Shown here: positions 8,400 through 61,296 of the stretch, in pieces
Numbering within the stretch: the first letter of the stretch is position 1
Layout of the letters: each line of letters begins with the position of its first letter
Source of the DNA: a virus
Direction: 5' to 3' (one strand)
Length of the DNA stretch: 64,000 bases
Virus record (IMG/VR): IMGVR_UViG_3300025405_000011
Span: 32,001-96,000 of that record
Position numbers and translations under genes: made by a program
Notes under the pieces: model-generated
What the model saw: the letters and a program-made list of their open reading frames with translations, nothing else
Database searches by the model: none
What the model was told of the DNA's origin: nothing

Positions 8400-9118
8400 T
8401 ATTCTCCTTTGTTAAAAAATAGTTCTTTGTTAAAGTAGATCTCTGAATCAATATTGTTTAGTTCATATAGTCTATCAATTTGTTTAGTAGATAGTTGTGA
8501 AAACATAGAAGAAGAATCTTTGTTAATATTATAACCCATAGTAATAATAGTATTTTGAGGTGGAGCTACATATCGAGCATTAAAATCTCTAAGGACCCTA
8601 CGTGTTACTAGTTCCATTCTATCTCTAGTCAACTGACTATCTCTTAATAAGACTTGTATACGTTCTATCCTAGTGTCTAGTAGACTTCTATCTATTTCTA
8701 GTGACCTAAATTCATAGTTGTTGGCAAAAAAATAAGCATTACCCTGACAACTAGAGTCATCAAAAAGTAAATTCTTCACTTGATAATTACTTATAAAGCT
8801 TTGCTCTCTGTCTACCCATTGTAAAAGTCCATCTATGTCTAGTGTATAATCCTCAAAAGATTTAAACTTATCATAGAGTACATAACAAAAATGACTTACC
8901 GTTCTTTTTGCAGGATCACGAAGAGAAGTAACTATATAAGTGTCTTCCTTAACTGGTTTCCAAGCGTGATGATACTCGGAGTTAATGTTCTCTATTCCAA
9001 CTGGTTCTAGACTTGATATTAGATGGGAGAAGAGTTCAGCTTTTATATAATGGCCCCCACACTTGGGTATGTGTAAGTAATAGATATTACTATTCATCGA
9101 TAGATTTTCTTTTTCCAA
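8399..9118 (-). CDS. Sulfotransferase family protein
   Basis: 5'-PSB motif HIPKCGG and 3'-PB motif LRDPAKRTVS. Confidence 0.8.
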   Translation of the reverse strand: MEKENLSMNSNIYYLHIPKCGGHYIKAELFSHLISSLEPVGIENINSEYHHAWKPVKEDTYIVTSLRDPAKRTVSHFCYVLYDKFKSFEDYTLDIDGLLQWVDREQSFISNYQVKNLLFDDSSCQGNAYFFANNYEFRSLEIDRSLLDTRIERIQVLLRDSQLTRDRMELVTRRVLRDFNARYVAPPQNTIITMGYNINKDSSSMFSQLSTKQIDRLYELNNIDSEIYFNKELFFNKGE

Positions 9119-9828
9119 TGATTCTTTCGATAATAACCGTCTTCAAGTTCTTCAAGTCCAACTGTATTCCAATGTGCAGTTTTATTGAGTTCTCCATCCA
9201 TACTCTCTTTGGCTATCCACTCTTCTCTACGAAAAGGGATTAGTTGTGCTACCATAGTCCCTGCAGGAATCTTTCCAGTAAAACCAATCTTTAGATGAAA
9301 GGCCATATTGGCACCCGGACAGTTATAGTCGTCTACAACTGCACTAGTACTGATAAATGGAAGATCCCAACGATTTAATGGGTGAGTAAAGAGACAACTA
9401 TATCCATCGGGTATTCTAATAGAAACTGGAAGAGACCAAATAAAGTGCTCTTCATGATAACCCGGTGGGTGTGGAGCAGGATCAGTTATTGCAGGTGGAC
9501 GATTAGATACAGGTCCTCTTTGTTGATTGTTATGACTTATAACTATTTTACCATCTACTTCTTGTACCCAGACATCTTCAGCCAAAAATACTCCATAGCC
9601 AGTGACTAATGCATCAAGAAAGGGCATGCAATGCTTAAGTCCTGGAAGTCTTGTTCCATCAAACTCGACCCAACGTTGAGTTTGTTTATACCAGTCAGGG
9701 GTATGTCTAGACATAGTCTGTACTAGTTCATCAAATTGTTGATTTGGATATCCACCTTCCCAGAGTAGAGTGACTGGTCCTGAACTAGAGTCAGTTAATA
9801 TTTTTTTATGTTTTTTTCTAGTGAACAT
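9094..9828 (-). CDS. Conserved phage protein (CMPFLDA motif, dUTPase-like beta-clip C-terminus)
   Basis: PDWYK...KHCMPFLDA...GYSCLFTHPLN...IPAGT..AQLIPFRRE; a family I recall beside 2OG-Fe(II) oxygenases in aquatic phages. Confidence 0.6.
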   Translation of the reverse strand: MFTRKKHKKILTDSSSGPVTLLWEGGYPNQQFDELVQTMSRHTPDWYKQTQRWVEFDGTRLPGLKHCMPFLDALVTGYGVFLAEDVWVQEVDGKIVISHNNQQRGPVSNRPPAITDPAPHPPGYHEEHFIWSLPVSIRIPDGYSCLFTHPLNRWDLPFISTSAVVDDYNCPGANMAFHLKIGFTGKIPAGTMVAQLIPFRREEWIAKESMDGELNKTAHWNTVGLEELEDGYYRKNHWKKKIYR

Positions 9829-10390
9829 TTTTATCTAGTTTCTGTTCTGAGTTATCTGTATAGTTTATAGACATAGATAGTTTTACTCCCTCAGTGATCT
9901 TTCTTACTCCGTGTACATATTGTGGTGGAAATAGCAATACACTTCCTTTAGAGGGCTTAAATTCTAAATCTAGACTGGGGAAGTAGATTTCTCCACCTTC
10001 ATACTCTTCAGGATTATTTAAGTATACTACAGAAGTGAAATTTGCTTCTGGCATATCTTCGTTGTCTATGTGGGGAACTATATATCCTCCCACTGGGTAG
10101 TAGTTAATATAGTGTTCATAATCATAGACTGCTTTAGAAGACTGTAAGAATTCAATTACTTTTCTACCACAACTACGATAGAGAGCTGTAACTGGACTAT
10201 TTACTATTTTATAGAGCAATAGCACATCTCGAGGGTTAACTAATAGTTCTGACCTATGGTCTTCATTATCACTACCACTAATCATCATATTGCCATCAAT
10301 ATAGGCTTTCCTGACATAATCTGATAAAAAGTCACAGGTTTCTTTGCCTATGAAGTCTTCTACTAGTACTACTTCACTTTCTTCTTCCAT
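9818..10390 (-). CDS. 2OG-Fe(II) oxygenase (prolyl 4-hydroxylase-like)
   Basis: HID...YLN...EGGEIYF...HGV...K motif. Confidence 0.88.
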   Translation of the reverse strand: MEEESEVVLVEDFIGKETCDFLSDYVRKAYIDGNMMISGSDNEDHRSELLVNPRDVLLLYKIVNSPVTALYRSCGRKVIEFLQSSKAVYDYEHYINYYPVGGYIVPHIDNEDMPEANFTSVVYLNNPEEYEGGEIYFPSLDLEFKPSKGSVLLFPPQYVHGVRKITEGVKLSMSINYTDNSEQKLDKNVH

Positions 10391-10392
10391 TA

Positions 10393-10959
10393 CTAATACT
10401 TTACACTTTCATCTTCAGTGTAGTTTAATGCAAGAGTTCTCTTAAATCCAGAAGTAACTTTACGAGCTTCATGCCAGTAGGTCCCTGGAAAAATTAGTAG
10501 AGTGCCCTTTTTAGGCTTAAGAACTAGATCTAGATTGGGGAAATATAGTTCTCCACCATCATAGTTCTCAGGTTCATCCAAGTATAGAACTGAAGTAACA
10601 AAGCAGTCAGGCATTTGATGATCATCTCTATGTGGAATTAAATGTCCATTTACTGGATAATAGTTAAAAAGACAGTTGTCTTTGTGTGCATAGAGTTTAC
10701 GAGAATGGCCTATTAATTCTATAGCAGAGTCCAAATGCTTACGATATGTAGAGACAAATTCTTCATCTTCTATCTGATAGGCATCTACTACTAGTCGAGG
10801 GTTTTGTAACTCTAGTTCTCTCACTTTGGGGTCTTTTACAGTAAGAGGCTTCATTCGTTGTAGTTCTAGTGCTTTGTCTAGATATCTATTATAGAGATCA
10901 CATTCTTCAAAACTAGTAAAGTCTTCATATATTCGAATTTCTTCTCTGGACTCTTCCAT
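10393..10959 (-). CDS. 2OG-Fe(II) oxygenase (prolyl 4-hydroxylase-like), paralog of the adjacent gene
   Basis: HRD...YLD...DGGELYF...HEA...K motif. Confidence 0.88.
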   Translation of the reverse strand: MEESREEIRIYEDFTSFEECDLYNRYLDKALELQRMKPLTVKDPKVRELELQNPRLVVDAYQIEDEEFVSTYRKHLDSAIELIGHSRKLYAHKDNCLFNYYPVNGHLIPHRDDHQMPDCFVTSVLYLDEPENYDGGELYFPNLDLVLKPKKGTLLIFPGTYWHEARKVTSGFKRTLALNYTEDESVKY

Positions 10960-12292: not shown

Positions 12293-13057
12293 CTACATCA
12301 GTCGTAAAGTACCATACTTTGTAGGGTTATTGGAATAGAGTTCTATTCTTCTTTGAGCTGATTTAGTCATCTCTTCTGAGATATCATTGGTAATAAAATT
12401 TCTTTTATTCTCTACTGCAGCTTGTGCAGTTACTCCACTGCCACCAAAAGGGTCTAGTACTGTATCCCCTGGCCTAGTGTAGAGTTGTATAAATTTATGT
12501 GCAAGCCCAATAGGGTAGGTGTCCAGTAAAAAACCTACTCCTTCTTTTTCTAGTTCTTGGTCTAGTAATTGCCCTATATTATTGTTTATCCCAGGACCCA
12601 ATCCCCAGTCTCTTTTCTTTATGTTTTTATTAAAAGGCAAGTGTGATGAAGATCTAGCTAGATGAAACCACAATACTTGAGATCCATTCATTGTCTCTAG
12701 AAAAGAATGGGGAACATTATAGTCCCAAGTAGTAAAGCCCAAATAGTGTAGCTTGGTTTTTTTTAAAACTTTGGCTAGGTAGAGATAGGGCATAGCTCTC
12801 TGATCTCCAATACAGATAAATAGACTACCATTGGGCTTTAAAACACGTTCCATCTCTTTGGTAGACTTAACTAGCATAGACAACATATCTACTTGACTAT
12901 GTCCAAAGTTTATCTGCTTTTGTGGATCACCCTTATAACGTTCTACATCTATGTCAAGATAGGGTGGGTGGGTAATAATTAAATCTATACTACCACTAGG
13001 GATGTCTAGTTTACGAGCATCTCCTATGATGAACTTATTGTTTTCAGATTGATACAT
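12293..13057 (-). CDS. DNA amino-methyltransferase (N4-C/N6-A, beta class)
   Basis: DLIITHPPY (motif IV variant) precedes VLDPFGGSGVT (motif I). Confidence 0.85.
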   Translation of the reverse strand: MYQSENNKFIIGDARKLDIPSGSIDLIITHPPYLDIDVERYKGDPQKQINFGHSQVDMLSMLVKSTKEMERVLKPNGSLFICIGDQRAMPYLYLAKVLKKTKLHYLGFTTWDYNVPHSFLETMNGSQVLWFHLARSSSHLPFNKNIKKRDWGLGPGINNNIGQLLDQELEKEGVGFLLDTYPIGLAHKFIQLYTRPGDTVLDPFGGSGVTAQAAVENKRNFITNDISEEMTKSAQRRIELYSNNPTKYGTLRLM

Positions 13058-13412
13058 TGCTTTTGGGTTTACGACCTCGTCCAGAGATTTTAACTCTATT
13101 GGCCTCTGACTCTTTTCTAGCCATAGAACTATCCATCCAATATAGTGCTTCGGGTTTATGGCAGTTAATATTCATTTTTTTTCGAATACTAACTCTTTGT
13201 TTCTCACTAGTACCAGCCCAATAGCCATAATGCTCATGATGTAGAGCATGTTCAAGACATTGCTTTTGTACTGGACAGTCCTCACATGTCTGTACTAGTA
13301 TCGGGTCTACTAACTCTCCTTGTGTTGGAAAGAACATTTCAGTTGCTAGGCCTTTACAGAGTGCTTGATCTTGCCATCTAAAGTCTATTTTATTTTTACT
13401 TATTACGGTCAC
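13044..13412 (-). CDS. whiB: WhiB-family Fe-S transcription factor
   Basis: WQDQALC...FFP...CEDCPV..QCL..AL...GYWAG. Probable GTG start at 13412 overlapping the GT stop. Confidence 0.92.
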   Translation of the reverse strand: MTVISKNKIDFRWQDQALCKGLATEMFFPTQGELVDPILVQTCEDCPVQKQCLEHALHHEHYGYWAGTSEKQRVSIRKKMNINCHKPEALYWMDSSMARKESEANRVKISGRGRKPKSNVSI

Positions 13413-14398
13413 TTTAGTGTTTTTTCTATTTCTCTTAGACGAGGAATTACTCGTGTTTCTACTTCTCGGTCCCAATTAAATTCTTCTTTTAGTTTAATTG
13501 CTTGTTCTCTATAGTCTAGTTCATAGTCAGAATAGTTATTGTATACTCTTCTCATCTGGTCTCTAATTGACTTGATAGTGGGTTGAAATGCTTCTCCTCG
13601 AAGAAAACTTACTTCTTGTATGTTCTGAGGAACAGCTTCTTTACGAGTATGCAACTTAGCATGTATATATTCAGCATAGTCAGCCCAATCGGTTACTGAA
13701 ATTACTGGCATGCCTGTAGCCATTGCTTCTAATGGCATCATACCACCACCCTCTCCCATACTGGGGTACACTAGGCAATGTGTATTGTAAAGTAGATTCT
13801 TGTAGTCCTCTTGTTCTAGAGCACTAGCAATAACTGTCACTCTATCATAGAGCTGTATTCCAGTAATAGAAGCAGGTCCATAGGACTTAAACACTAGGAA
13901 AGCATTACTATCATCTTCAAACTCTTGAAGAAATGCTTCTAGTACTAGTCGTCCATTCTTTCTTAGAGTGGGCTCTCCAGTATGTAAAAAGTAAAAGGGT
14001 CCATCTTTGACTCTCTCTACTGGGTCAAAGCCATCAGTTATGCATGCTCTTACAACTAGAGTTACTCTATCAGTATACTTATCAAAACAGTCTTCTTTAA
14101 CCCAAGTGGCTGTAGTCCAGATCTCGTCCATGAGATTTAGACCATCTTGCCATTCGGGTATTATTTCTGTACTCTCATGAGTGGCTATACCAATATTATA
14201 TTGATTGGACTGTCTACATAGCCATCCAGGATTATCACAGCAGATGTTGATTTCTGCAGTAGGGTCATTAATCACTACTTCAAAACCATGTCTCTCTAAA
14301 GAGTTGTAGATTTGACGTGCAACTCGTGCATACCCATTCTGTTGAGTATTGAATGAGTTATTGTTGTGTAATGCTACACCTGTAAAAGAAATCTTCAT
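13409..14398 (-). CDS. Glycosyltransferase, GT-B fold (GT4-like)
   Basis: NGY, HEST, RKNG, PSMGEGGGMMPLEAMATG. Confidence 0.88.
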   Translation of the reverse strand: MKISFTGVALHNNNSFNTQQNGYARVARQIYNSLERHGFEVVINDPTAEINICCDNPGWLCRQSNQYNIGIATHESTEIIPEWQDGLNLMDEIWTTATWVKEDCFDKYTDRVTLVVRACITDGFDPVERVKDGPFYFLHTGEPTLRKNGRLVLEAFLQEFEDDSNAFLVFKSYGPASITGIQLYDRVTVIASALEQEDYKNLLYNTHCLVYPSMGEGGGMMPLEAMATGMPVISVTDWADYAEYIHAKLHTRKEAVPQNIQEVSFLRGEAFQPTIKSIRDQMRRVYNNYSDYELDYREQAIKLKEEFNWDREVETRVIPRLREIEKTLK

Positions 14399-20664: not shown

Positions 20665-21611
20665 TATTGTGCTCCATAAACAGTAGCTGTAATACTAAGA
20701 CTTGGATTGGATAGACTATCTTGTGGGAGTGCTGTACCATCTCCTGTTAAAGTTACACTATTAATATTTCTAGTCAAATCTATAGTCTTTTCTTGAGTTT
20801 GTAAGTGTGCAAATACTGGTGCAGTTATAGTTGATGAATTTTGTAGCCAATAACGTGTACTAGAACCCGGTTGTTTTACTGTTGGAGTATTGATGTTGGA
20901 TGCTTGTACTGTTCTTTGCATATAAAAGTTTTCTGAATAATTTTCTGTAGCACTAACCCATACTGCTGTAATGTCTTGAAGAAGAGCTTGGGGAGTTCCA
21001 AAAGATACTACAAAGTTACTGGGTAGTAATAGACCCATAACTTGTAAGAGTGCATTAGCTTTGTCTTGTGTCCAAGTTACTTTACCAACATTATCTATAG
21101 TAGGCACTAGTACTACTTCAGTAGTAAGAGAACCAAATCGGCCTAGATTAGGAGTTTTCCAGCTTTCTACTACGGTAAAAGGTATTTGAGTAATGGCTTC
21201 AGCTAGAGTCAATATCCCCCAGACTGTAGCTCCCAATTGGAAAGCTTCTGCAGCACCCAATAGACGTTCTCTGTAGCTAGCGTCTTTACGAGAAATTTCT
21301 TGCCAACTATTAACAGTCAACTGGTCAATAAAAGGGTTAGTAGAAAAACTATAGATTTCTGAAGATAGTCTTTTAATATTAAGGATTGAACCTAGAATAG
21401 TATCTAAGTTTGAAAATTCTACATTTTGTTGAATAAGTCTTGCAACAGTCTGTAGCATAGATAACTGACCGGTACCGGCATTACCCAGCATAGTTTTCAT
21501 AAGTAGAGTTAGATTATCATTAGAGTCAAAGTTATAGACGTCATCAGGAAAGTTTTGTACTTTTTGATCAAAAGTTGGATGAAGTATAATGGGGAAAAGA
21601 TTACCAGCCAT
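20664..21611 (-). CDS. Baseplate wedge protein (gpI-like)
   Basis: Follows baseplate J; LD.I.G...R...DASYRERL...GATVWGI pattern. Confidence 0.7.
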   Translation of the reverse strand: MAGNLFPIILHPTFDQKVQNFPDDVYNFDSNDNLTLLMKTMLGNAGTGQLSMLQTVARLIQQNVEFSNLDTILGSILNIKRLSSEIYSFSTNPFIDQLTVNSWQEISRKDASYRERLLGAAEAFQLGATVWGILTLAEAITQIPFTVVESWKTPNLGRFGSLTTEVVLVPTIDNVGKVTWTQDKANALLQVMGLLLPSNFVVSFGTPQALLQDITAVWVSATENYSENFYMQRTVQASNINTPTVKQPGSSTRYWLQNSSTITAPVFAHLQTQEKTIDLTRNINSVTLTGDGTALPQDSLSNPSLSITATVYGAQ

Positions 21612-24034
21612 TAGAAATTACTCATTCCCTTAACTGTAAAGTTAACTGCATTAAGAACTGGCAATTGATTACTAGATAGTAGGAAGTCACTATTTTTATT
21701 AGTTCCGATGGTTGTAGTACCGTCTAGTGACATAATACTAATACTATTTACTCTAACATTATTTACTCCAACTATACCCACTATTTGAGAGAGAATATTG
21801 GCAAATGAAATGACTCCCAGATAAGGAACTTGATTAAGATAACTACTTAGAGTATTACTTATGGCTGAATTAACACTGGCTTGATTACTACCTGGAGTAT
21901 AGACAATTGTAAGGTTAATGTTTAGAGGTACAAAAGTAGCTTGATGAACTAATGTATTTACTCCAATGGGGCGAGATTGTTGTATTAGGTTTTCTACATT
22001 AGTAACATCATAGTTAATATAATGCATATAAGTGCCCCAAGTGTTAGTATTAGGGATACTCCATCCTGCATTATAGGTTGAGCTCTCTATTCCTAGCCCA
22101 GTCATACTAAGTATACTATTACTTGTACGAGTGTTGTCATAGAGTGGATAAACTATAGTTCGACCAGTTAATGTACCCGTAGCACCACCAGAACCCAGTA
22201 CTGTATTATTGAGATATACTCCACTACTAACAACCTGGCTAATATAGGAGAAAGCTGGAATTATTGCTCCACTAGGTAGAGTTAGACCACAGTAGATGTA
22301 GGTATTGGCATTGGGTACTGAAATAAAGTTTGTACCACTAATAGCAGTACCACTAAAAGAGACAGGTCCTGCTCCATGACCCGAGTTATAGTAGTTGTCT
22401 GCTATAGGATAAGTAACTCCACTACCGACAGTAGTATTAAAGACATAAATAGAGTCACATATTCCAGAGTTACTGGTAGTAATTTGACTAGGAAAAGTAA
22501 TACAAGGCTGCTGAGTTAGCTGTATATAGTAGTCACCACTAGCTACTATTGCACTACTACCGTTAGCCATAATATAGTTATTGGCATTTAAGTAAGTAGG
22601 GCCACCAGTGCCACTTAAAATTTGAGTAGTATTAAATACCACTTGTTCAGTTACTTGATAGGTACTAGTACCATTAATAAATATATCAGCATAGTTAGAG
22701 ATATTGGGCATAGTCGCACTAGCACGAGAGCAAGCTGGGGTATACTCTGAAATTACTTCTATTGTACTACCAATAAAGAGTGCAGGATTATTGGCATTAT
22801 TAAGTATGGTTAGAGAGAGTTGAGGAGTTGGATTAGTAGGATATAGATAGTCTACGTTATTGCTATATACAGTCTGAGTAGGGGTATTGAGATATTGTCC
22901 TACAAGTTCTCCACCTTGTGGAAAAATATAGCCTGAATAAGTAGTTCCATATCCAACATCTGGGTTATTGGAAGTAACTGACTCAGAGTAAGTAAAACCA
23001 CTTATAGTGGTAACTCCACTAAGAGTAGTTCCACTAACTGTAAGTCTATAGGGACTACCACTAAGTGCTGTAATTGTTAGTGCATTACCATTAATAGTAC
23101 TGCCAGTAGGGGTAACTGTAAAGTTAAAACCACTAGAAACTAGTGTAGGGTAGACTCCAGATACCAAAGCAGTTAATCCAGCAGCAAGTGTAGTTCCTGT
23201 AGTACTGCCTAAAAATCCACTAGAAGCTACAGTTGTAGTTGCATTATAGGTGACTCCATTAATGGTTTGTCCACTATAAGCTACTAATTGAAACTTAACA
23301 GTATTGGTACCACTAGTACCACTAATTGTAGATACTACCTGTAGTTGCTCATCATAGTACTGTTGAGGTCCTATAGAGTTTGCTGCAGTAACATTTGAGT
23401 CTTGTAGAGCAGTAAGAGTATACTTGTTACTAGTACCAACATTATTACTAAATACTGTACTAGTCCAACGACTACGAAGTTGACTATCGGTTTCTGGATC
23501 AACTCCACCTGCAATACTAGAACTATTAGTTACTGAAGTAATACCCACTAGTGTTTGACCCAGACTAGTTATAGAACCAGCAGCAACATTGCCCAAAGTT
23601 CCAGCCAGTACAGCAGTGACTGGAACATCAACACTAAATGAACCAATAGGTATAATGGCTGGTGAACTAGTTATAAAGTAGATTACGTTAGGGTTTGTAG
23701 GAGAAATCGGTACTACTACTTGAGTACCTGCTGCAATAGAGTAAATACTGGTAGCAGCTGTAGCTACAGAAAAAGTAACAACACCATTAGATCTCTTACC
23801 CAGTTGTCGATAAAGTCCAAATAGATTAACAAAAGCATCTAGCTCTGGTCCAAACTTAGTATTAACATCATAACTGTAAGTTTGTAGAGTAGCATTGTTG
23901 CTAGCATTAGCAATTTCTTGTGCTACTGATTCAAAGATCTTGTAAGTAGCACTACCAACACTAGTGTCCCAGGATGGGTCTGAAAGTGAGAGTGCTGATA
24001 ATAGTCTATTTAGTACTGAACTAGCGTTAGCCAT
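21611..24034 (-). CDS. Baseplate J-like wedge protein with a large central insertion
   Basis: G.ELD....FG..R, AGT.GNV.AGSI, GGVDPETDSQLR.R. Confidence 0.9.
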   Translation of the reverse strand: MANASSVLNRLLSALSLSDPSWDTSVGSATYKIFESVAQEIANASNNATLQTYSYDVNTKFGPELDAFVNLFGLYRQLGKRSNGVVTFSVATAATSIYSIAAGTQVVVPISPTNPNVIYFITSSPAIIPIGSFSVDVPVTAVLAGTLGNVAAGSITSLGQTLVGITSVTNSSSIAGGVDPETDSQLRSRWTSTVFSNNVGTSNKYTLTALQDSNVTAANSIGPQQYYDEQLQVVSTISGTSGTNTVKFQLVAYSGQTINGVTYNATTTVASSGFLGSTTGTTLAAGLTALVSGVYPTLVSSGFNFTVTPTGSTINGNALTITALSGSPYRLTVSGTTLSGVTTISGFTYSESVTSNNPDVGYGTTYSGYIFPQGGELVGQYLNTPTQTVYSNNVDYLYPTNPTPQLSLTILNNANNPALFIGSTIEVISEYTPACSRASATMPNISNYADIFINGTSTYQVTEQVVFNTTQILSGTGGPTYLNANNYIMANGSSAIVASGDYYIQLTQQPCITFPSQITTSNSGICDSIYVFNTTVGSGVTYPIADNYYNSGHGAGPVSFSGTAISGTNFISVPNANTYIYCGLTLPSGAIIPAFSYISQVVSSGVYLNNTVLGSGGATGTLTGRTIVYPLYDNTRTSNSILSMTGLGIESSTYNAGWSIPNTNTWGTYMHYINYDVTNVENLIQQSRPIGVNTLVHQATFVPLNINLTIVYTPGSNQASVNSAISNTLSSYLNQVPYLGVISFANILSQIVGIVGVNNVRVNSISIMSLDGTTTIGTNKNSDFLLSSNQLPVLNAVNFTVKGMSNF

Positions 24035-34795: not shown

Positions 34796-36316
34796 CTAGG
34801 CAGTAGTGTAATTCGAACTTAGAGTACCTGTAGTAGTCAGCTGACCAGTGTTAGGGTTAAGACTCAGAGTTACATCGATGTAGTTAATTGGATAAGTTGG
34901 AGCATACTGGAATGTAATATAGATGGTGGTAGGATTAGGGTTTCCTGTAGTAGCAGTTAAGTTTTGGTAAGCCTGGATTAGTCCAGTCTGTACACTACTA
35001 ATTAGTTGGTTCTGTACGATACCTTGTGCTCCTGCAAAAGTCTGTGCAGTAAGTGGAGCACCGATAAGTCCACTACTAATTAAAGCTGCTTGAATGTTGT
35101 CGGCCAGTACGTCCCCGATGGCATTAATTGAAATTTCTTGTGTTAACCAGTTGCTAGTGTTAGTAGTTAGACCTTGCTGAACATACATATTGCCATTTCT
35201 ACGCTGTCTAATGACACATAGACCATTGGCTTGGTAGATACTGGTTGAGTCAACTGCACTAACCTGATTAGGCACTGCAGTAAATCCAAATACTTGCTTA
35301 TTAGTAATAGGAGTAGCAACACTAGGTTGACCTACAAATAGACCGGCTAGAGCAGCAGCCCCATAGCATCCGGCAATATTAATAAGTGTATTGGATAGAC
35401 CTGTAGTGGCATTTAAACCCGGGTTATAGGTAAGTGAACCTGGATAAGCTATACTAACTCTACTATTACTAAAAGCTGTAGCAAATGCTACAACTGCAGT
35501 AGAAGTGAGATTGTTAGCAGTTCCATCAATTCCAATAAAGAATCTTTGATATATTCCATTGTTAAATTGTGCAGTTAGATAACTGGTAATACCTGTAGAG
35601 ACTGCATCACTACTGTAAGTTACTACACCGGCACTAGTAGAGAATGGATAGGTAGGAACAACTACATCTACTCCCACCTGGTTATTTAGATAAGTTTCAT
35701 CACTACCGGTATTGCTGGTAGTAAGTGTACGAGACCAGTCACTGGTACTAGCGGTAGAACCCACAGTAATTCCATTGTAACTACTGGCTCGAGCAACTGG
35801 AAGTACAGTTACACTTGCTGCTCCATTAAGGAATGCAAGATAACTAGCTAGACTGGCTTGAGAAGAAACATTAGTTCCACTAACAGCAGGACCAAAAGCA
35901 GTACTTACTGCATTATAGTTAGTGTAAGTACCATATCCACCAAATGAGTGTTGATAGTTAAAGGTTGTAGTACCACTAATAGCGGGGCCACTGAACCCTG
36001 AAGTAGTGTAGATGGCAGTATAGATACCGGTTGGATTAGCACTACCATCTGAGTTGCATCGAACTGTACTAAAGTTTACACCGTTGGTACCAGTAATGGT
36101 AGAAGTGTAAGCAGTAATGGTACCTGAATTAACGAGTGGGGTACTGAGAACTCCGACTAGGGAACCACTGACAGCTACGTAAGTATCTGTATCATAGCCG
36201 CTCACTGTACTATCTGCTAGAATACAGATATTAAGTGTAGCATTACTTACAGAGACAAAAGAAGAGCCAGATTGGGTTACATAAACCCCTGGAGTCTGAT
36301 AATTAGAAATGGGCAT
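34796..36316 (-). CDS. Tail sheath protein
   Basis: YQTPGVYV, FGPA, AF.NGA, C-terminal FQYAPTYPINYI. Confidence 0.92.
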   Translation of the reverse strand: MPISNYQTPGVYVTQSGSSFVSVSNATLNICILADSTVSGYDTDTYVAVSGSLVGVLSTPLVNSGTITAYTSTITGTNGVNFSTVRCNSDGSANPTGIYTAIYTTSGFSGPAISGTTTFNYQHSFGGYGTYTNYNAVSTAFGPAVSGTNVSSQASLASYLAFLNGAASVTVLPVARASSYNGITVGSTASTSDWSRTLTTSNTGSDETYLNNQVGVDVVVPTYPFSTSAGVVTYSSDAVSTGITSYLTAQFNNGIYQRFFIGIDGTANNLTSTAVVAFATAFSNSRVSIAYPGSLTYNPGLNATTGLSNTLINIAGCYGAAALAGLFVGQPSVATPITNKQVFGFTAVPNQVSAVDSTSIYQANGLCVIRQRRNGNMYVQQGLTTNTSNWLTQEISINAIGDVLADNIQAALISSGLIGAPLTAQTFAGAQGIVQNQLISSVQTGLIQAYQNLTATTGNPNPTTIYITFQYAPTYPINYIDVTLSLNPNTGQLTTTGTLSSNYTTA

Positions 36317-48580: not shown

Positions 48581-48943
48581 CTAGACTTCTAAGGCCGACC
48601 ACTTTCCCAGTGGACAAAAAGCCTCAGCTAATTTAACTTTTGCAGTCATAATACAACCACATTCTTTGCATTGCATAAGTTTCTTACGAAGTCGAGGACA
48701 GTCCTTACAGATGTCTAGTCGTTGTTCTTGTATCTCTTCTGGGACTCGTTCTTTGTTAGGATTAAGTAAGTCCCAAGGACGAACCTGTCTTGGTTTTTCT
48801 TGTTCCTGCTCTTCTAATAAAGCATAAAAAGGTTCTGGGCTTTTTGTAGATATGGGTATTTCTTTAACTTCATTGTGTATTTCTAGAAATTTTCTTTCTT
48901 TTTCTAGATATAGATCCCAAGGTCTTGGACTCTGATCAGACAT
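48581..48943 (-). CDS. Cys-motif protein (DUF6171-like)
   Basis: RPWDL twice, then R..IC..C...CKECGC.M..K......CP.GKW. Probable start MSDQSP at 48943. Confidence 0.7.
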   Translation of the reverse strand: MSDQSPRPWDLYLEKERKFLEIHNEVKEIPISTKSPEPFYALLEEQEQEKPRQVRPWDLLNPNKERVPEEIQEQRLDICKDCPRLRKKLMQCKECGCIMTAKVKLAEAFCPLGKWSALEV

Positions 48944-48945
48944 TT

Positions 48946-49170
48946 CTAGCCTATCGTGTCGTTTACTGGAGCTTGAAAACCTGAGTCTTTGGAGTAAGTC
49001 CAACCGATACTTATTTCTCCCACTAGTGCTGGTTCAACAGCAACAATAACTGGGTTACTGGTTAGTAATGCAGCAAAACGCTCTTGCGTAGTCATTACTT
49101 CTTGAACTTGTCCGTCTATAACAAAGGCAACGGTTTCAGTCATACTGGGTACTGCTGGATTATCAGACAT
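48946..49170 (-). CDS. Small fibre-associated protein
   Basis: AFVIDG.V...FAALL.SNP...IGW.Y....F..P; AGGAG RBS. Confidence 0.65.
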   Translation of the reverse strand: MSDNPAVPSMTETVAFVIDGQVQEVMTTQERFAALLTSNPVIVAVEPALVGEISIGWTYSKDSGFQAPVNDTIG

Positions 49171-49204: not shown

Positions 49205-50698
49205 TTATTGACCCGTAAAGGTTCCAATTGTTGTACCCTGAGTAAGTCCACCGGGAGTTAGTGCAACGCCTACTCCTGCAGTTGCGGCAGAGGGTATACC
49301 AGTAGTAGCAGTATAGCTAGTGGTACCCAGGCTGGCTGTTAACGCTGTATCGGTATATGGAGTCACTACAATTACTCCAGTGGTGGCATTGGTGGTAACA
49401 CTCAAAGAGTTAATGTAGGGAGTACTACTGGTATTGGTCCAGCTGGTACTCCATACACTAGTGATGGTATTTGCTACTGATCTCCATAGATTAACTGGCC
49501 ATACATAGTAGGTTGTAGTGTATCCAGCTGTACAACCATAGGCAGTGCAACCGTTGGCAGTGCAACCGTTATTGTTGGCAGTACAACCGTTAGTACAGCA
49601 ACCACTAGTAGTACAACCGTAACCGGCACAGTTACTGCCATTATAGGCATTGCAGCAACCGTTACCACAACTACCATAGGTGGGGTTAGAAGCATTGTAC
49701 CCAGTACAACCAGTACCAGTACAGCCATAACCAGCACATTCATAACCACCACAGGTAAAGGTCGTACAGATAGTATTGTAGCCAGTCTGACAACCGCTAC
49801 CACAAGAACCATAGATGGCATTACTGGCATTATAGGCATTGCAGCAACCGTTACCACAACTGCCATAGTTAGCATTACCACCAGTTTTGGTCTTGGCATT
49901 GTAAGCATTGTATCCAGTAACACAACCGGTACCACAACTACCACTGGTCTTGCAGTTACTGGCATTGTAGCCATTGAGACAACCGTTACCACAACTACCA
50001 TAGGTTGCATTACCCTGACCATAAGCATTGCAGTAATAAGTCTGACAAACAATAACGGCACAACCGGTACTAGTACAACCATTAGTAGCACAAGTGGCAG
50101 CATTGTAGCCAGTCTGACAACCGTTGCCACAACTACCACTGGTCTTGCAGTTACTGACATTATAACTGGTACAGCCAGTAGCACAGCAACCGGAACTAGT
50201 ACAACCGTAGGTGGCACAACCGGTTACTCCATAGGCAGTGCAGCCGTTGGCGGTACAACCATTAGCAGTGCAGGTATAGGTATTGTAAGTGGAGCTAGGT
50301 CCAGTGGACAGTACATAGAAATCACCAGAGCTGGTTTGCCAAAAAGCAACTCCAGCACCCTGACTGACACTCTGTGCACTAATTGTAGCACTGGTTTTAA
50401 AGGGAGTTGTAGCCAGTGGAAAACTGGTATTGGACACTGTACTTGAACTAGTGGCCACTCCACTATTACTGTACCAAATTCCAATGATATTGCTCCAGGT
50501 ATTGCCGGTATTACTGGTGCCTAGACTACCGCTTGTAACTCGAGCCCAAGTGTCAAGGATGTTGCTTTGATACCAAGTTTTCCAGGCTCCACCAATATTG
50601 ATAAAGCTCTGTGTAATCGAGTGCCAAGTTCCGCCAATATTTACTGACATTCCATTGGTAGAGTGCCAGTTTCCGCCTACGTTAAGATTTCCTGCCAT
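49205..50698 (-). CDS. Cys-rich fibre/adhesin: beta-sandwich domain with a 42-Cys insertion
   Basis: Three N-terminal N(I/V)GGxW repeats; central CTANG/CGNG repeats. Confidence 0.75.
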   Translation of the reverse strand: MAGNLNVGGNWHSTNGMSVNIGGTWHSITQSFINIGGAWKTWYQSNILDTWARVTSGSLGTSNTGNTWSNIIGIWYSNSGVATSSSTVSNTSFPLATTPFKTSATISAQSVSQGAGVAFWQTSSGDFYVLSTGPSSTYNTYTCTANGCTANGCTAYGVTGCATYGCTSSGCCATGCTSYNVSNCKTSGSCGNGCQTGYNAATCATNGCTSTGCAVIVCQTYYCNAYGQGNATYGSCGNGCLNGYNASNCKTSGSCGTGCVTGYNAYNAKTKTGGNANYGSCGNGCCNAYNASNAIYGSCGSGCQTGYNTICTTFTCGGYECAGYGCTGTGCTGYNASNPTYGSCGNGCCNAYNGSNCAGYGCTTSGCCTNGCTANNNGCTANGCTAYGCTAGYTTTYYVWPVNLWRSVANTITSVWSTSWTNTSSTPYINSLSVTTNATTGVIVVTPYTDTALTASLGTTSYTATTGIPSAATAGVGVALTPGGLTQGTTIGTFTGQ

Positions 50699-51054
50699 TA
50701 GCTATACTGAATCCAGATGTCTCCGTTAGCCCCACCTGAGGGAGTAACTGTTCCACTAACTACCCAAATGTTTCTTACGACTCCAAGACCACTAGATGTA
50801 GTGGCAGTTGTCACTACTGTACCACTACCGGCAGTGTAAGAGAGATTAATCTGTGCACCGGGGACCCAAGTTCCTGGAGAACCGGGGGAGGTACAGACCC
50901 AAGTGTTGCCATTCTGTCCAATTAGAAAGTCACCGGCTACATAGGTACCACTAGTTGGAGCACCACTAACGGTTGCTCCTACATAACGTGTCCCTTGGGT
51001 TGCTCCAGGAAGACCGGTAGCACTATAACTCTCTCGGGTTATTGATTCAGCCAT
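50698..51054 (-). CDS. Short fibre module protein
   Basis: GAPTSGTY.AGDF...WVCT..GSPGTW and P.GG.NGDIWIQY motifs typical of fibre joints. Confidence 0.7.
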   Translation of the reverse strand: MAESITRESYSATGLPGATQGTRYVGATVSGAPTSGTYVAGDFLIGQNGNTWVCTSPGSPGTWVPGAQINLSYTAGSGTVVTTATTSSGLGVVRNIWVVSGTVTPSGGANGDIWIQYS

Positions 51055-60282: not shown

Positions 60283-61296
60283 CTAAGCCTTAACGATCTT
60301 ACCAAGACCACGTGGGTTCAATACGATCTCTGAAACGAGCTCGTCCATTACCCATCCCTTGTGGAACTTCTCAGGGGTGTGGTTCTCTTCTACATCGAGT
60401 GAGTACATAACTGGGAATACACCGAGGAACTCTGGTGATGGAGTCATGTAAACTGTTCCCTGTGGAACTTCGATTGAACGCTGTACTTGGAAGCCACCGA
60501 ACTGAACAATACGCTCACCGGCAACAACACGGTCCTTAAAGGCCCAACCTGTTTGGTTAATGTCCCACTTGTAGAGGTCACGGTAGTCGATTGGGTTAAA
60601 CAAAAGACGACTGGCTTCCAACTGGTGGACTTCAATCAATGCTACGAGGTCATAGAGCGAATCAGGAGTAATGTATCCTGAAAGTTCGTTAACTACGTGG
60701 TTAGGTGATACTGTGTGGTTAGGGTCGACAGCATAGTTGTTAATTGCAGCTTCAAGAACTGTAATTAGACGAGCGTCTTCCTGCATCATAATAGCCTGCT
60801 TGGACATGTCCTGAGCATATTCTACGATGTTAACACGCAAGTACCATAGGTCTTCCTTCTTAATTTGAGGGAATGTAGCGATACGGAACAAACGGACCGG
60901 AACCTTCTTACCTTCGAATGGAGTAACGCGGACTTCGCCTTCGTTACCACTCAAGATGTAGGCCTGACCATATTCGTCAAGTACGTCGTACATAACTGGT
61001 ACACCAGGTGTTAGTGGATCTTCCAGAAGAACGTTACGAGTCATACCTTGGTAACGAAGCTTAAGCTGGATAGGACCAATCATACCCTGACCAAGACGAA
61101 CCATGTAGTTGTCCTTGTCGGCGAGGATTCCAGCAAGACGACGCTGCTTTTCCTCACGGGTGGCTGTCTTACGACCAGTTGCAGCAGCGAGACGCTCTTG
61201 AGCCTCTACAATGTTTGCAACATAATCATCAGACTTCTTTGCGGTACGAGGAGCCAAGTGTTCAGCTACTGCACCATTAGGAGTGATTGAACTCAT
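60283..61296 (-). CDS. Major capsid protein (Bxz1/E3-like)
   Basis: KSDDYVA, MIGPIQL.LRYQG..RNVLLED.LTPGVP, FRIA.FPQIKKEDL, WDIN.TGWAFKD, PEFLGVFPVMYSLDVEE match my recall of cluster C mycobacteriophage MCP. Confidence 0.92.
   Translation of the reverse strand: MSSITPNGAVAEHLAPRTAKKSDDYVANIVEAQERLAAATGRKTATREEKQRRLAGILADKDNYMVRLGQGMIGPIQLKLRYQGMTRNVLLEDPLTPGVPVMYDVLDEYGQAYILSGNEGEVRVTPFEGKKVPVRLFRIATFPQIKKEDLWYLRVNIVEYAQDMSKQAIMMQEDARLITVLEAAINNYAVDPNHTVSPNHVVNELSGYITPDSLYDLVALIEVHQLEASRLLFNPIDYRDLYKWDINQTGWAFKDRVVAGERIVQFGGFQVQRSIEVPQGTVYMTPSPEFLGVFPVMYSLDVEENHTPEKFHKGWVMDELVSEIVLNPRGLGKIVKA

What the first reader, a model, noticed from the sequence alone, without database searches (positions are those of the whole stretch)
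49532..50272. 42-cysteine insertion with mirror symmetry: a giant disulfide-laddered hairpin
Seen: all 42 Cys of the 497-aa protein lie in one 247-aa insertion. They split 21 + 21 around a central Cys-free turn (YNAYNAKTKTGGNANY). Cys blocks read 3-5-3-5-2-3 going out and 3-2-5-3-5-3 coming back, and both ends use CTANG/CTAYG units. Simple tandem duplication would not give this mirror order. Inference: the arms pair antiparallel as a long stalk stapled by up to 21 cross-strand disulfides (or metal sites), projecting a Lys-containing tip from a beta-sandwich. This would be an unusual receptor-probe architecture for a protein made in a reducing cytoplasm.
Basis: partly seen in the sequence, partly recalled or inferred. 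Interest (0 to 1): 0.8.

Follow-up and report, generated by a model that had tools for sequence, protein, structure and literature searches.

The report
Disulfide-laddered hairpin stalk on phage lectin
A tail-region protein of an uncultured phage of actinobacteria is a sugar-binding-type domain from which a very long two-armed hairpin projects, its arms matched cysteine for cysteine (21 + 21), most likely pinned by disulfide rungs; relatives in many other uncultured phages show the same pattern, and my literature searches found no description of it.

Summary
The 497-aa ORF (49205-50698, minus strand) has 42 Cys, all at residues 143-389. They split 21 + 21 around a Cys-free tip, in blocks 3-5-3-5-2-3 and 3-2-5-3-5-3.

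The mirror order is not chance: 0 of 2000 shuffles of the Cys spacings match it, and a direct-repeat control is not significant.

It is a family trait. The flanks fold as a ConA-like/CBM sandwich like actinophage receptor-binding heads. In 149 of 150 relatives, and 56 of 56 further viral-contig copies, the insert holds an even number of Cys (6-64), as often 2 mod 4 as 0 mod 4. About half show the same mirrored register. Three conserved tip motifs lie exactly between equal arms in 18 of 19 proteins. Three close pairs differ by matched additions on both arms.

This favours pairwise cross-arm disulfides over metal sites or intra-arm pairs. The connectivity is not shown. AlphaFold2 gave pLDDT under 50 for the target's insert, and only base and tip hairpins in a simpler relative. 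Some relatives use local Cys modules instead.

Two small genes follow the gene in 65-72 of 80 viral loci.

The scan has met this family before on other genomes, with similar verdicts.

The parts
49205..50698 (-). Whole gene: 497-aa tail-region protein, a ConA-like sandwich split by the Cys-rich insert.
   Evidence: ORF. It is single-copy in the 132.6-kb virus record. Homologues: 16, and 1645 representatives at E<=1e-3.
50564..50698 (-). Residues 1-45: three short GGxW(H/K) beta-hairpin repeats. This N-terminal extension is present in only part of the family.
   Evidence: Sequence. AF2 strands E4-7 to E38-44 at pLDDT 84-92. Many relatives start at profile position ~35 and lack it.
50273..50563 (-). 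Residues 46-142: N-terminal half of the beta-sandwich.
   Evidence: pLDDT above 90. Conserved motifs in A1/A2. VIA match to CBM66 4b1m_A, Z 16.4.
49922..50272 (-). Arm 1 (outgoing), residues 143-259: 21 Cys in blocks 3-5-3-5-2-3. It is built of CxxxG pentads and YGSCGNGC-type units. Its 3-Cys units are C-x5-C-x3-C.
49859..49921 (-). Tip, residues 260-280: Cys-free turn holding the conserved motif YN[AS]KxK[TS]GG.
   Evidence: The motif occurs in 7 unique family members and lies between equal Cys counts in 7 of 7.
49532..49858 (-). Arm 2 (returning), residues 281-389: 21 Cys in blocks 3-2-5-3-5-3. Its 3-Cys units are C-x3-CC.
49208..49531 (-). Residues 390-497: C-terminal half of the beta-sandwich.
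   Evidence: pLDDT 79-97. Conserved C-terminal motifs.
48946..49170 (-). 74-aa Cys-free protein directly downstream; a conserved companion gene of unknown function.
   Evidence: A homologue is present in 65 of 80 viral loci that hold a relative of the Cys protein, mostly adjacent. Conserved core.
48581..49003 (-). DUF6171-like six-Cys protein (C-x2-C ... C-x2-C-x-C ... C); a conserved companion gene. By my reading of the ORF sequence, the real start is probably the internal Met at about 48943, just after the stop of the 74-aa gene.
   Evidence: Pfam DUF6171 E 1.3e-5, 25.9 bits, below the cut-off of 27. phrog_13558 E 9.8e-17. A homologue is present in 72 of 80 loci. Alignment of 55 sequences.
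50698..51054 (-). 118-aa protein upstream. Its stop codon overlaps the start codon of the Cys protein by one base.
   Evidence: Coordinates. A homologue sits directly upstream in 11 of 80 loci.

Best explanation
The gene encodes a tail or baseplate accessory protein of an uncultured myovirus that infects Actinomycetota.

Its body is a ConA-like (CBM-type) beta-sandwich of the kind used as receptor-binding heads by actinophages. From one hairpin of that sandwich a 247-residue excursion goes out 117 residues, turns at a conserved Lys/Thr/Gly-rich tip, and comes back 109 residues. The two arms run antiparallel and in register.

The k-th Cys from the N end is most likely disulfide-bonded to the k-th Cys from the C end: C143-C389, C148-C384 ... 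C259-C281, up to 21 rungs. The insert has almost no hydrophobic or charged residues, so the rungs, helped by Asn/Thr/Tyr hydrogen bonding, would take the place of a hydrophobic core and make a thin stiff stalk.

The arms are modular, with one Cys per 5-, 8- or 12-residue unit in different relatives. Over evolution they lengthen or shorten by matched unit gains on both arms. The stalk is therefore a length-adjustable spacer carrying a conserved tip, probably for reaching or recognising a host-surface structure.

Oxidation probably happens during or after virion assembly and release into oxic water, possibly helped by the two conserved downstream genes.

Shown: the Cys pattern, its significance, the family-wide even parity, equal arms, matched indels, the sandwich fold and the gene neighbourhood. 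Inferred: the disulfide connectivity, stiffness, virion location, receptor role, and the time and place of oxidation.
For: 1. Mirror register in the target: 0 of 2000 shuffles reach it in two tests, and the direct-repeat controls are not significant.

2. Facing units match in length rung by rung: 8|7 at rung 3; 8|8 at rung 8; 4|4 at rungs 10, 17 and 20; pentads opposite pentads at rungs 12-15.

3. Arm-specific, complementary placement of the third Cys. Both 3-Cys units of arm 1 are C-x5-C-x3-C and both of arm 2 are C-x3-CC. In an antiparallel hairpin the extra Cys therefore lies on the base side in both arms.

4. Even parity. The insert Cys count is even in 149 of 150 aligned family members, range 6-46, and in 56 of 56 complete proteins from separate viral contigs, range 6-64.

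5. No preference for multiples of 4: 73 are 0 mod 4 and 76 are 2 mod 4. Arms are thus as often odd as even. That fits cross-arm pairs, not intra-arm pairs or Cys4 metal sites.

6. Family-wide mirror signal. Of 146 members tested, the spacing test is significant (p<=0.05) in 79, against 10 for the direct control. The register test is significant in 64, against 10.

7. Conserved tip motifs lie between equal Cys counts although arm size varies: 7 of 7 (arms of 6-21 Cys), 8 of 8 (5-15) and 3 of 4.

8. Matched additions on both arms in three close pairs: L035/L044 (1+1), L057/P0053 (one 3-Cys unit on each arm), L080/P0136 (2+2).

9. AF2 of the pentad-class relative P0004 predicts strands at the base (106-119 and 245-257; 10-residue block means 73-97) and a tip hairpin (171-179 and 185-193; pLDDT 78-87). 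There, 13 consecutive mirror-ranked Cys pairs have the same position sum, 361.

10. Composition. G, C, T, N, A, Y and S make up 227 of 247 insert residues. Only 10 are V/I/L/F and 5 are K/E.

11. Fold: CBM66 4b1m_A, Z 16.4, 150 aligned, rmsd 2.8; mycobacteriophage Douge baseplate 8zdo_a, Z 14.6; TM4 gp23 receptor-binding domain 9n6a_A, Z 14.3.

12. Context. The gene lies in the structural module between a 2057-aa fibre-like and a 1770-aa repeat protein. The major capsid protein is 64% identical to Catera-like mycobacteriophages. A WhiB gene is present.

13. Precedent for virion disulfides: Pam3 (PMC9942802, passages) and Jabs (abstract).
Against: - No structural support for the target's insert: AF2 pLDDT is under 50 for residues 151-385.
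- In P0004 the mid-arms (122-169, 195-241) are also under 50.
- Coordinates are not exposed, so no Cys-Cys distance could be inspected.
- Disulfide connectivity is inferred, not measured. Staggered or partly local pairing, such as C-x3-C rings, cannot be excluded.
- A residue-level test for like-with-like pentads at the same rung was negative: identity 78 of 213 at shift 0 against 77 of 183 at shifts +1 and -1.
- P0155 has 9 + 11 Cys around its tip motif.
- About half of the family shows no significant mirror signal. In three close pairs of the irregular branch, indels are local modules with even Cys numbers.
- CC doublets in the target and in P0005/P0006 are offset by one rank between the arms.
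- The protein is made in a thiol-reducing cytoplasm, and nothing here shows when or whether it is oxidised.
- Virion location and receptor binding are not shown.
Confidence: 0.62

Rival explanations
1. Local pairing. The insert is a rod or solenoid of small tandem modules. Cys pair with near neighbours in sequence (C-x4-C pentads, C-x3-C rings). The arms merely pack side by side or not at all, as in EGF/TNFR-type rods or disulfide-braced beta-helices.
For: - Relatives of the irregular branch gain and lose local modules with 2, 4 or 6 Cys at single sites: L010/L025, L008/L013, L021/P0068.
- The mirror signal is absent in roughly half of the family.
- AF2 does not model the arms as a confident hairpin.
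- C-x3-C and C-x4-C spacings could close small rings.
Against: - The target's blocks hold 3, 5, 3, 5, 2, 3 Cys and each arm holds 21. Both are odd, so purely local or intra-arm pairing is impossible.
- The family has as many odd arms as even ones: 76 against 73.
- Single-Cys units are added in matched pairs on both arms (L035/L044). That would shift every local pair between the two sites.
- A simple tandem array does not predict the mirror register (direct controls).
Confidence: 0.2
2. Metal-thiolate reading. The Cys bind Zn, Cu, Cd or Fe in clusters, in a metallothionein-like or multi-zinc-knuckle way, and are not oxidised.
For: The insert has a very high Cys density (17%) and is made in a reducing cytoplasm. 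A six-Cys, probably metal-binding, DUF6171-like protein is encoded next door.
Against: - Even parity in 149 of 150 and 56 of 56 relatives, with no excess of multiples of 4 or any other cluster size, is what pairwise bonding predicts. Cys3 or Cys4 sites do not predict it.
- The insert holds 22 Tyr. That metallothioneins lack aromatic residues is my recollection, not a tool result.
- No His accompanies the Cys: both His of the protein lie outside the insert.
- The gene's context is a virion module, so the protein would be exposed to oxic water.
Confidence: 0.07
3. Intermolecular network. The Cys form disulfides between subunits of an oligomer or to other tail proteins. They would lock the fibre or baseplate as in phages Pam3, Milano or Jabs, rather than stapling one hairpin.
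For: Disulfide networks that link virion parts are documented: Pam3 passages, Jabs abstract, Milano seen in a search listing only. Phage receptor-binding proteins are often trimers (general knowledge).
Against: Bonds between identical subunits do not require an even Cys number per chain or equal arms around a tip. Both are observed almost without exception. Oligomeric state was not tested here.
Confidence: 0.08

Closest known systems
Cystine-ladder motifs: the cyclic cystine ladder of theta-defensins and the cystine-ladder-like loop of Chlamydomonas HAP2 (PMC6327110, passages read)
   Same: Two antiparallel strands are joined by parallel cross-strand disulfide rungs. In HAP2 the motif is also an insertion in a loop of a larger beta-rich protein.
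   Different: The known ladders have three rungs in 18 or 37 residues. This one would have up to 21 rungs in 247 residues, with one Cys per 4-13-residue unit, modular arms and a conserved tip. The connectivity here is inferred, not solved. There is no cyclic backbone.
ConA-like carbohydrate-binding and receptor-binding domains: CBM66 (4b1m), mycobacteriophage Douge baseplate protein (8zdo chain a), TM4 gp23 C-terminal receptor-binding domain (9n6a), phage J-1 Dit CBM2 (5ly8)
   Same: The AF2 model of the flanks shares the beta-sandwich fold: Z 16.4, 14.6, 14.3 and 11.4. The actinophage tail context also matches.
   Different: Sequence identity is 7-10%. There is no Pfam or PHROG match. Whether any of these structures carries a comparable insertion was not examined. 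Sugar binding was not tested.
Disulfide-linked phage virions: cyanophage Pam3 (PMC9942802), Agrobacterium phage Milano (PMC10811340, listing only), Mycobacterium abscessus phage Jabs (preprint, abstract only)
   Same: They show that tailed-phage structural proteins made in the cytoplasm can end up disulfide-bonded in the particle, including in an actinophage.
   Different: There the bonds tie subunits and parts together. Here the pattern indicates an intrachain ladder forming a projecting stalk.
Bovine ultralong CDR-H3 'stalk and knob' antibodies
   Same: A long two-stranded antiparallel stalk projects a recognition element from a beta-sandwich domain, and its length is diversified.
   Different: By my recollection the bovine stalk itself is not disulfide-laddered and the disulfides lie in the knob. 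It is unrelated in sequence and origin. No tool comparison was made.
Disulfide-braced beta-helical insect antifreeze proteins (Tenebrio type; recalled)
   Same: A Thr/Cys/Gly/Asn-rich low-complexity repeat protein without a hydrophobic core, held together by regularly spaced disulfides.
   Different: Those are direct tandem coils with local disulfides inside each coil. They have no mirror order, no equal arms and no tip. No tool comparison was made.

Membership tests
ConA-like lectin/glucanase-fold CBM and phage receptor-binding head | Two-sheet jelly-roll beta-sandwich | tested here: met
   The AF2 flanks have pLDDT above 90. VIA-align: 4b1m_A Z 16.4 (150 aligned, rmsd 2.8), 8zdo_a Z 14.6, 9n6a_A Z 14.3. 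Foldseek gave only weak legume-lectin hits, E about 1e-2.
ConA-like lectin/glucanase-fold CBM and phage receptor-binding head | Sequence membership in a curated family | tested here: not met
   Pfam gave 0 families at E<=1. PHROGs gave 0 at E<=0.01. The profile search against PDB sequences gave only one chance-level hit, E 0.49.
ConA-like lectin/glucanase-fold CBM and phage receptor-binding head | Carbohydrate or receptor binding | not testable with these tools
   No ligand or host is available.
Cystine ladder (theta-defensin / HAP2 CLL type) | Two antiparallel segments with Cys opposite each other in register | tested here: met
   By sequence statistics only. The register range is 8 residues against a null median of 30.5, with 0 of 2000 shuffles as low. 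Arms are equal around tip motifs in 18 of 19 proteins. A tip and a base hairpin are predicted in P0004.
Cystine ladder (theta-defensin / HAP2 CLL type) | Parallel cross-strand disulfide connectivity (C_k to C_n+1-k) | not testable with these tools
   Only indirect evidence: even parity in 149 of 150 and 56 of 56, odd arms, and matched 1+1 indels. No coordinates or mass spectrometry are available.
Metagenomic phage family 'split ConA-like sandwich with Cys-rich insert' | Conserved N- and C-terminal halves flanking an insert at the same site | tested here: met
   The profile search found 1645 representatives at E<=1e-3, 307 of them at E<=1e-30.
Metagenomic phage family 'split ConA-like sandwich with Cys-rich insert' | Companion genes (74-aa protein and DUF6171-like protein) next to it | tested here: met
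   The window has both directly downstream. In 80 viral loci they occur in 65 and 72.
Rods of local tandem disulfide modules (EGF/TNFR-like) | Each module holds an even number of Cys and is gained or lost as a whole at one site | tested here: not met
   The target's blocks hold 3, 5, 3, 5, 2, 3 Cys per arm. The feature is met in other branches of the family.
Metallothionein-like metal-thiolate proteins | Cys numbers set by cluster stoichiometry rather than by pairs | tested here: not met
   Counts are even in 149 of 150, with 73 at 0 mod 4 and 76 at 2 mod 4. Metal content itself cannot be tested here.

The most novel reading that the evidence does not exclude
The Cys protein, the 74-aa protein and the six-Cys DUF6171-like protein form a phage-encoded cassette. 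In other phages one or two cupin-like or 2OG-Fe(II) oxygenase genes are interleaved with them. The cassette builds, and perhaps oxidises or modifies, a modular disulfide-rung probe. The length of the probe is tuned by matched unit insertions on both arms, from 3 to at least 23 rungs, so that a conserved tip reaches a receptor through the actinobacterial envelope. This would be a new principle for building phage receptor-binding structures, and possibly the first dedicated oxidative-folding helper set in a tailed phage.
Probability: 0.2. Interest if true: 0.85.

Novelty: new variant of a known kind. Interest (0 to 1): 0.7.

Why it matters
If the rungs are real, this is by far the longest cystine ladder known: up to 21 rungs against three in theta-defensins and HAP2.

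It would also be a previously undescribed way for phages to build an adhesin. The protein combines a lectin-fold head with a core-less, disulfide-stapled stalk of adjustable length.

The family is large: 1645 representative clusters, and 125 confirmed places on viral contigs. It belongs to phages of actinobacteria that are mostly uncultured, for which host-recognition proteins are hardly known.

The strict even parity and equal arms give a simple sequence rule for finding and classifying such proteins.

The conserved companion genes offer a handle on how a phage gets dozens of disulfides into a protein made in a reducing cytoplasm.

Such stalks could also serve as stable, modular display scaffolds.

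Tried and rejected
1. Structure prediction of the target with a 150-row alignment. The insert came out at pLDDT under 50, so it says nothing for or against the hairpin.

2. Structure prediction of the simpler relative P0004. Only the base and the tip came out confident; the mid-arms were under 50.

3. Residue-level 'like faces like' test on pentads at the same rung, in 9 pentad-class proteins. There was no excess at shift 0: 78 of 213 identical, against 77 of 183 at shifts +1 and -1. I dropped the idea that facing pentads co-vary.

4. The idea that facing modules are always each other's closest paralogues. It holds for the two end modules (12 of 15 aa; 89% over 36 nt and 78% over 50 nt). It does not hold for the 3-Cys units, which are most alike within an arm.

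5. Sequence look-ups that gave nothing for the target: Pfam, PHROGs, tblastn against cultured phages, and a profile against PDB sequences. One search gave one chance-level hit, E 0.49.

6. ESM Atlas. It returned only unnamed viral and actinobacterial clusters, best score 0.91, with no structure held.

7. Complex prediction on a cognate trio from locus L059 (Cys protein, 74-aa protein, DUF6171-like protein as the scored partner). The verdict was 'no answer' (score 0.00 in both runs, controls not run). This is no evidence either way.

8. A thioether (lanthionine-type) reading, prompted by the Thr that follows most Cys. I rejected it because it would not require even Cys numbers.

9. A DNA palindrome as the source of the mirror order. 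I rejected it.

10. Literature.
- 'DUF6171': 0 papers.
- cysteine-rich / tail fiber / disulfide / actinophage: 11 papers hold at least 3 of the 4 terms; 10 were listed; only Pam3 was relevant.
- cystine ladder / disulfide ladder / laddered disulfide: 49 papers; none of the 15 listed is on phages.
- bacteriophage / cysteine-rich / receptor-binding protein / disulfide bonds / beta-hairpin: 39 papers; 12 were listed; Jabs, Milano and Pam3 are relevant as precedents only.
- freshwater / actinobacteria / phage / cysteine / tail fiber / metagenom: 3 papers, none relevant.
I found no description of this architecture. Subscription journals and supplements were not searched.

11. Host assignment through prophages in bacterial genomes. 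The scan did not run and I did not pursue it.
Full report
**What is there.** The window is part of a 132.6-kb viral record, estimated 83% complete. It carries a myovirus structural module on the minus strand:
- major head protein at 60283-61296;
- tail sheath at 34796-36316;
- baseplate wedge at 21611-24034.

The capsid protein is 64% identical to those of Catera-like mycobacteriophages, and a WhiB gene lies at 13044-13475. The host is therefore most likely an actinobacterium, although the window's G+C content is only about 36-48%.

The finding lies in a 497-aa ORF (49205-50698, minus strand). It sits between a 2057-aa fibre-like gene plus a 118-aa gene upstream and two small genes plus a 1770-aa repeat protein downstream.

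**The observation.**
- The protein has 42 Cys, all at residues 143-389, which is window 49532-50272.
- 21 Cys lie before and 21 after the largest Cys-free gap (C259 to C281).
- The blocks run 3-5-3-5-2-3 going out and 3-2-5-3-5-3 coming back.
- CTANG/CTAYG pentads stand at both ends.

The insert is extreme in composition. G, C, T, N, A, Y and S make up 227 of its 247 residues. Only ten residues are V/I/L/F and five are K/E.

It is built of two unit types: CxxxG pentads and units of the YGSCGNGC..GYNxSN type.

**Is the mirror order more than chance?** I compared the k-th Cys spacing from the N end with the k-th from the C end.
- The summed difference is 34. None of 2000 shuffles of the spacings is as low (z -4.5).
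- The same statistic for a direct repeat of the two halves is unremarkable (z -1.4, p 0.11).

A more physical measure is the sum of the positions of mirror-ranked Cys pairs. This sum is constant in a perfectly registered hairpin.
- It varies by only 8 residues over arms of 117 and 109 residues.
- The null median is 30.5, with 0 of 2000 shuffles as low. The direct control gives p 0.14.

Laid side by side, the facing units match in length: 8|7 at rung 3; 8|8 at rung 8; 4|4 at rungs 10, 17 and 20; pentads opposite pentads at rungs 12-15.

There is also a telling asymmetry. Both three-Cys units of arm 1 are C-x5-C-x3-C, and both of arm 2 are C-x3-CC. The extra Cys is thus N-terminal in the outgoing arm and C-terminal in the returning arm. 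In an antiparallel hairpin both extras lie at the same height.

The gene holds no DNA palindrome that could create this pattern. It does hold 15-nt-period tandem arrays. These arrays could let the arms expand and contract.

**The flanks.** AlphaFold2 models residues 1-142 and 390-497 with high confidence, mostly pLDDT above 90, as one beta-sandwich. The best structural matches are:
- CBM66, 4b1m_A: Z 16.4, 150 residues aligned, rmsd 2.8;
- a baseplate protein of mycobacteriophage Douge, 8zdo_a: Z 14.6;
- the receptor-binding domain of TM4 gp23, 9n6a_A: Z 14.3.

Foldseek gives weak legume-lectin hits. No Pfam or PHROG family matches. The body is therefore a ConA-like, CBM-type domain of the sort actinophages use as receptor-binding heads. 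By sequence it belongs to no curated family.

**The family.**
- A word-based search found 16 relatives.
- A profile search found 1645 representative clusters at E<=1e-3, 307 of them at E<=1e-30.
- A scan of viral contigs confirmed 125 of 211 candidate places.

All relatives keep the two sandwich halves. At one site they carry an insert that differs wildly in length and unit type, with periods of 5, 8, 10 or 12 residues and one Cys per unit. Two relatives (P0014, P0072) have Cys-free, Tyr/Thr-rich inserts there.

**Parity.**
- In the alignment of the target with 149 representatives, the insert Cys count is even in 149 of 150 (range 6-46). The exception is P0003 with 19.
- 73 counts are multiples of 4 and 76 are not.
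- In a separate set of 56 complete proteins translated from viral contigs, the count is even in 56 of 56 (range 6-64). Six further proteins were set aside as cut or lacking the C-terminal half.

Even numbers without a preference for multiples of 4 are what pairwise bonding predicts. Cys3 or Cys4 metal sites and thioether links do not predict them. The same result means single arms are as often odd as even, which argues against pairing confined to one arm.

**Mirror order in the family.** 146 members have an even count of at least 10 Cys.
- Spacing test: significant (p<=0.05) in 79 and at p<=0.01 in 61. The direct control gives 10 and 4.
- Register test: significant in 64 and 48. The direct control gives 10 and 3.
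- 76 members have a register range of 10 residues or less, while only 14 have a null median that low.

**Tip motifs.** Three unrelated conserved tip motifs allow a cleaner test.
- The target's own motif occurs in 7 unique proteins and lies between equal Cys counts in 7 of 7, with arms of 6, 7, 8, 9, 11, 11 and 21 Cys.
- A second motif does so in 8 of 8, with arms of 5, 6, 11 and 15.
- A third does so in 3 of 4. The exception is P0155 (9 + 11), which has a recent tandem duplication in one arm.

**Indels in close pairs.** All counted differences in Cys number are even, except one pair (L055 27 vs P0098 26) that I did not examine; a start-codon extension is my untested guess. Three pairs show matched gains on both arms:
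- L035/L044: one unit on each arm, next to the tip;
- L057/P0053: one 3-Cys unit on each arm, of different sequence types;
- L080/P0136: two Cys on each arm.

Against this, three pairs of an irregular branch (L021/P0068, L010/L025, L008/L013) differ by local modules with 6, 2+2 and 4 Cys at unmatched sites. That branch clearly uses locally paired modules. L062/P0075 could not be resolved.

**Structure prediction of the insert.** The target's insert was modelled at pLDDT under 50.

For the regular pentad-class relative P0004 (16 + 16 Cys), AlphaFold2 predicts:
- long paired strands at the base (106-119 and 245-257);
- a hairpin at the tip (171-179 and 185-193, pLDDT 78-87);
- low confidence in the mid-arms.

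In that protein 13 consecutive mirror-ranked Cys pairs share the position sum 361, which is a perfect register. The tools return no coordinates, so no Cys-Cys distances could be read.

**Reading.** The best explanation is a two-armed antiparallel hairpin pinned by up to 21 cross-arm disulfides. It has no hydrophobic core, and it projects a conserved Lys/Thr/Gly tip from a lectin-fold head of a tail or baseplate accessory protein.

Arm length evolves by matched unit gains, so the stalk acts as an adjustable spacer.

I put this at about 0.62. The main rival, at 0.2, is local or partly local pairing with the arms merely packed together. Metal binding and intermolecular networks are less likely, for the parity and equal-arm reasons given above.

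The 'reducing cytoplasm' problem is real but not unprecedented.
- Pam3 tail fibres are disulfide-linked to the baseplate (PMC9942802, passages read).
- A 2026 preprint reports about 1,700 disulfides in the virion of the actinophage Jabs (abstract only).

**Neighbourhood.** The 80 viral loci were compared with the window's proteins.
- 72 hold a homologue of the DUF6171-like six-Cys protein (48581-49003).
- 65 hold a homologue of the 74-aa protein (48946-49170).
- Both are nearly always directly downstream of the Cys protein, in either order.
- 21 loci hold homologues of the window's 244-aa protein at 9094-9828, which has no Pfam family.
- 18 loci hold homologues of its 2OG-FeII_Oxy_3 protein at 9818-10390. 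These are often interleaved with the cassette, as in L073 and L028. In this genome those genes lie 40 kb away, beside sulfotransferase-like and GT4 genes.

The DUF6171-like protein keeps the pattern C-x2-C ... C-x2-C-x-C ... C.

A complex prediction for a cognate trio gave no verdict. Whether these genes fold, oxidise, modify or simply accompany the stalk protein remains open.

**Known relatives of the idea.** True cystine ladders have three rungs: theta-defensins, and the 37-residue ladder-like loop of algal HAP2 (PMC6327110, passages). My five literature searches found no description of a long ladder in a phage protein or of this family. Supplements and subscription journals were not seen.

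**Earlier notes of this scan.** The scan's own notes show the same architecture on at least six other genomes, with similar verdicts. I reached my reading before seeing them, and I count them as agreement, not as evidence.

**Verdict.**
- Novelty: a new variant of known kinds (a cystine ladder combined with a ConA-like phage receptor-binding head).
- Interest: 0.7.

Noticed in passing
window 48581-49170 (-); loci L002-L081: The 74-aa protein and the DUF6171-like six-Cys protein form a conserved cassette with the Cys-ladder gene. They occur in 65 and 72 of 80 viral loci, mostly adjacent, in either order. The window's DUF6171-like ORF has a duplicated RPWDL motif. It probably starts at an internal Met near 48943.
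   Followed up: partly
window 9094-10959 (-); e.g. L073 5791-7644, L028 7131-9627, L074 6639-9833: Homologues of the window's 244-aa protein occur in 21 of 80 loci. That protein has no Pfam family but a conserved HPxNR..LPF motif. Homologues of its 2OG-FeII_Oxy_3 proteins occur in 18 of 80 loci. In other phages both are interleaved with the Cys-ladder cassette. Here they lie 40 kb away, next to sulfotransferase-like and GT4 genes. A modification pathway acting on the stalk protein is conceivable.
   Followed up: partly
L082 (Synechococcus phage S-IOM18, HQ317383.1 16903-25112): tblastn found DUF6171-like genes in 68 cultured-phage records, from cyanophages and from Stenotrophomonas, Rhizobium and Xanthomonas phages. 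In S-IOM18 the gene lies downstream of fibre genes. It follows a 137-aa ORF with a CPQC motif, which by my reading suggests a thioredoxin-like protein, and precedes a His-rich oxygenase-like ORF.
   Followed up: partly
P0014 and P0072 (family members): Two relatives carry Cys-free, Tyr/Thr-rich inserts of about 100-150 residues at the same site of the sandwich. The excursion can therefore exist without any Cys.
   Followed up: no
P0155 (family member): This is the only asymmetric case found around a tip motif (9 + 11 Cys). Arm 2 holds an exact tandem duplicate of a 12-residue unit. A recent one-arm duplication that keeps the total even is likely.
   Followed up: no
window 60283-61296 (-) and 13044-13475 (-): The major capsid protein is 64% identical to Catera/Bxz1-like mycobacteriophage capsids (229 phage records matched), and there is a WhiB gene. 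This looks like a low-G+C relative of the large actinobacterial myoviruses.
   Followed up: partly
window 50564-50698 (-): The N-terminus has three GGxW(H/K) repeats, predicted as short beta-hairpins. They are present in only part of the family and may be the attachment module to the fibre or baseplate. The upstream 118-aa gene overlaps the start codon by one base.
   Followed up: no
window 49474-50217 (-): A 247-aa open frame in another frame of the same strand runs through the Cys-rich region. It is rich in V, P and M. I take it for a by-product of the repetitive codon composition, not a gene.
   Followed up: no
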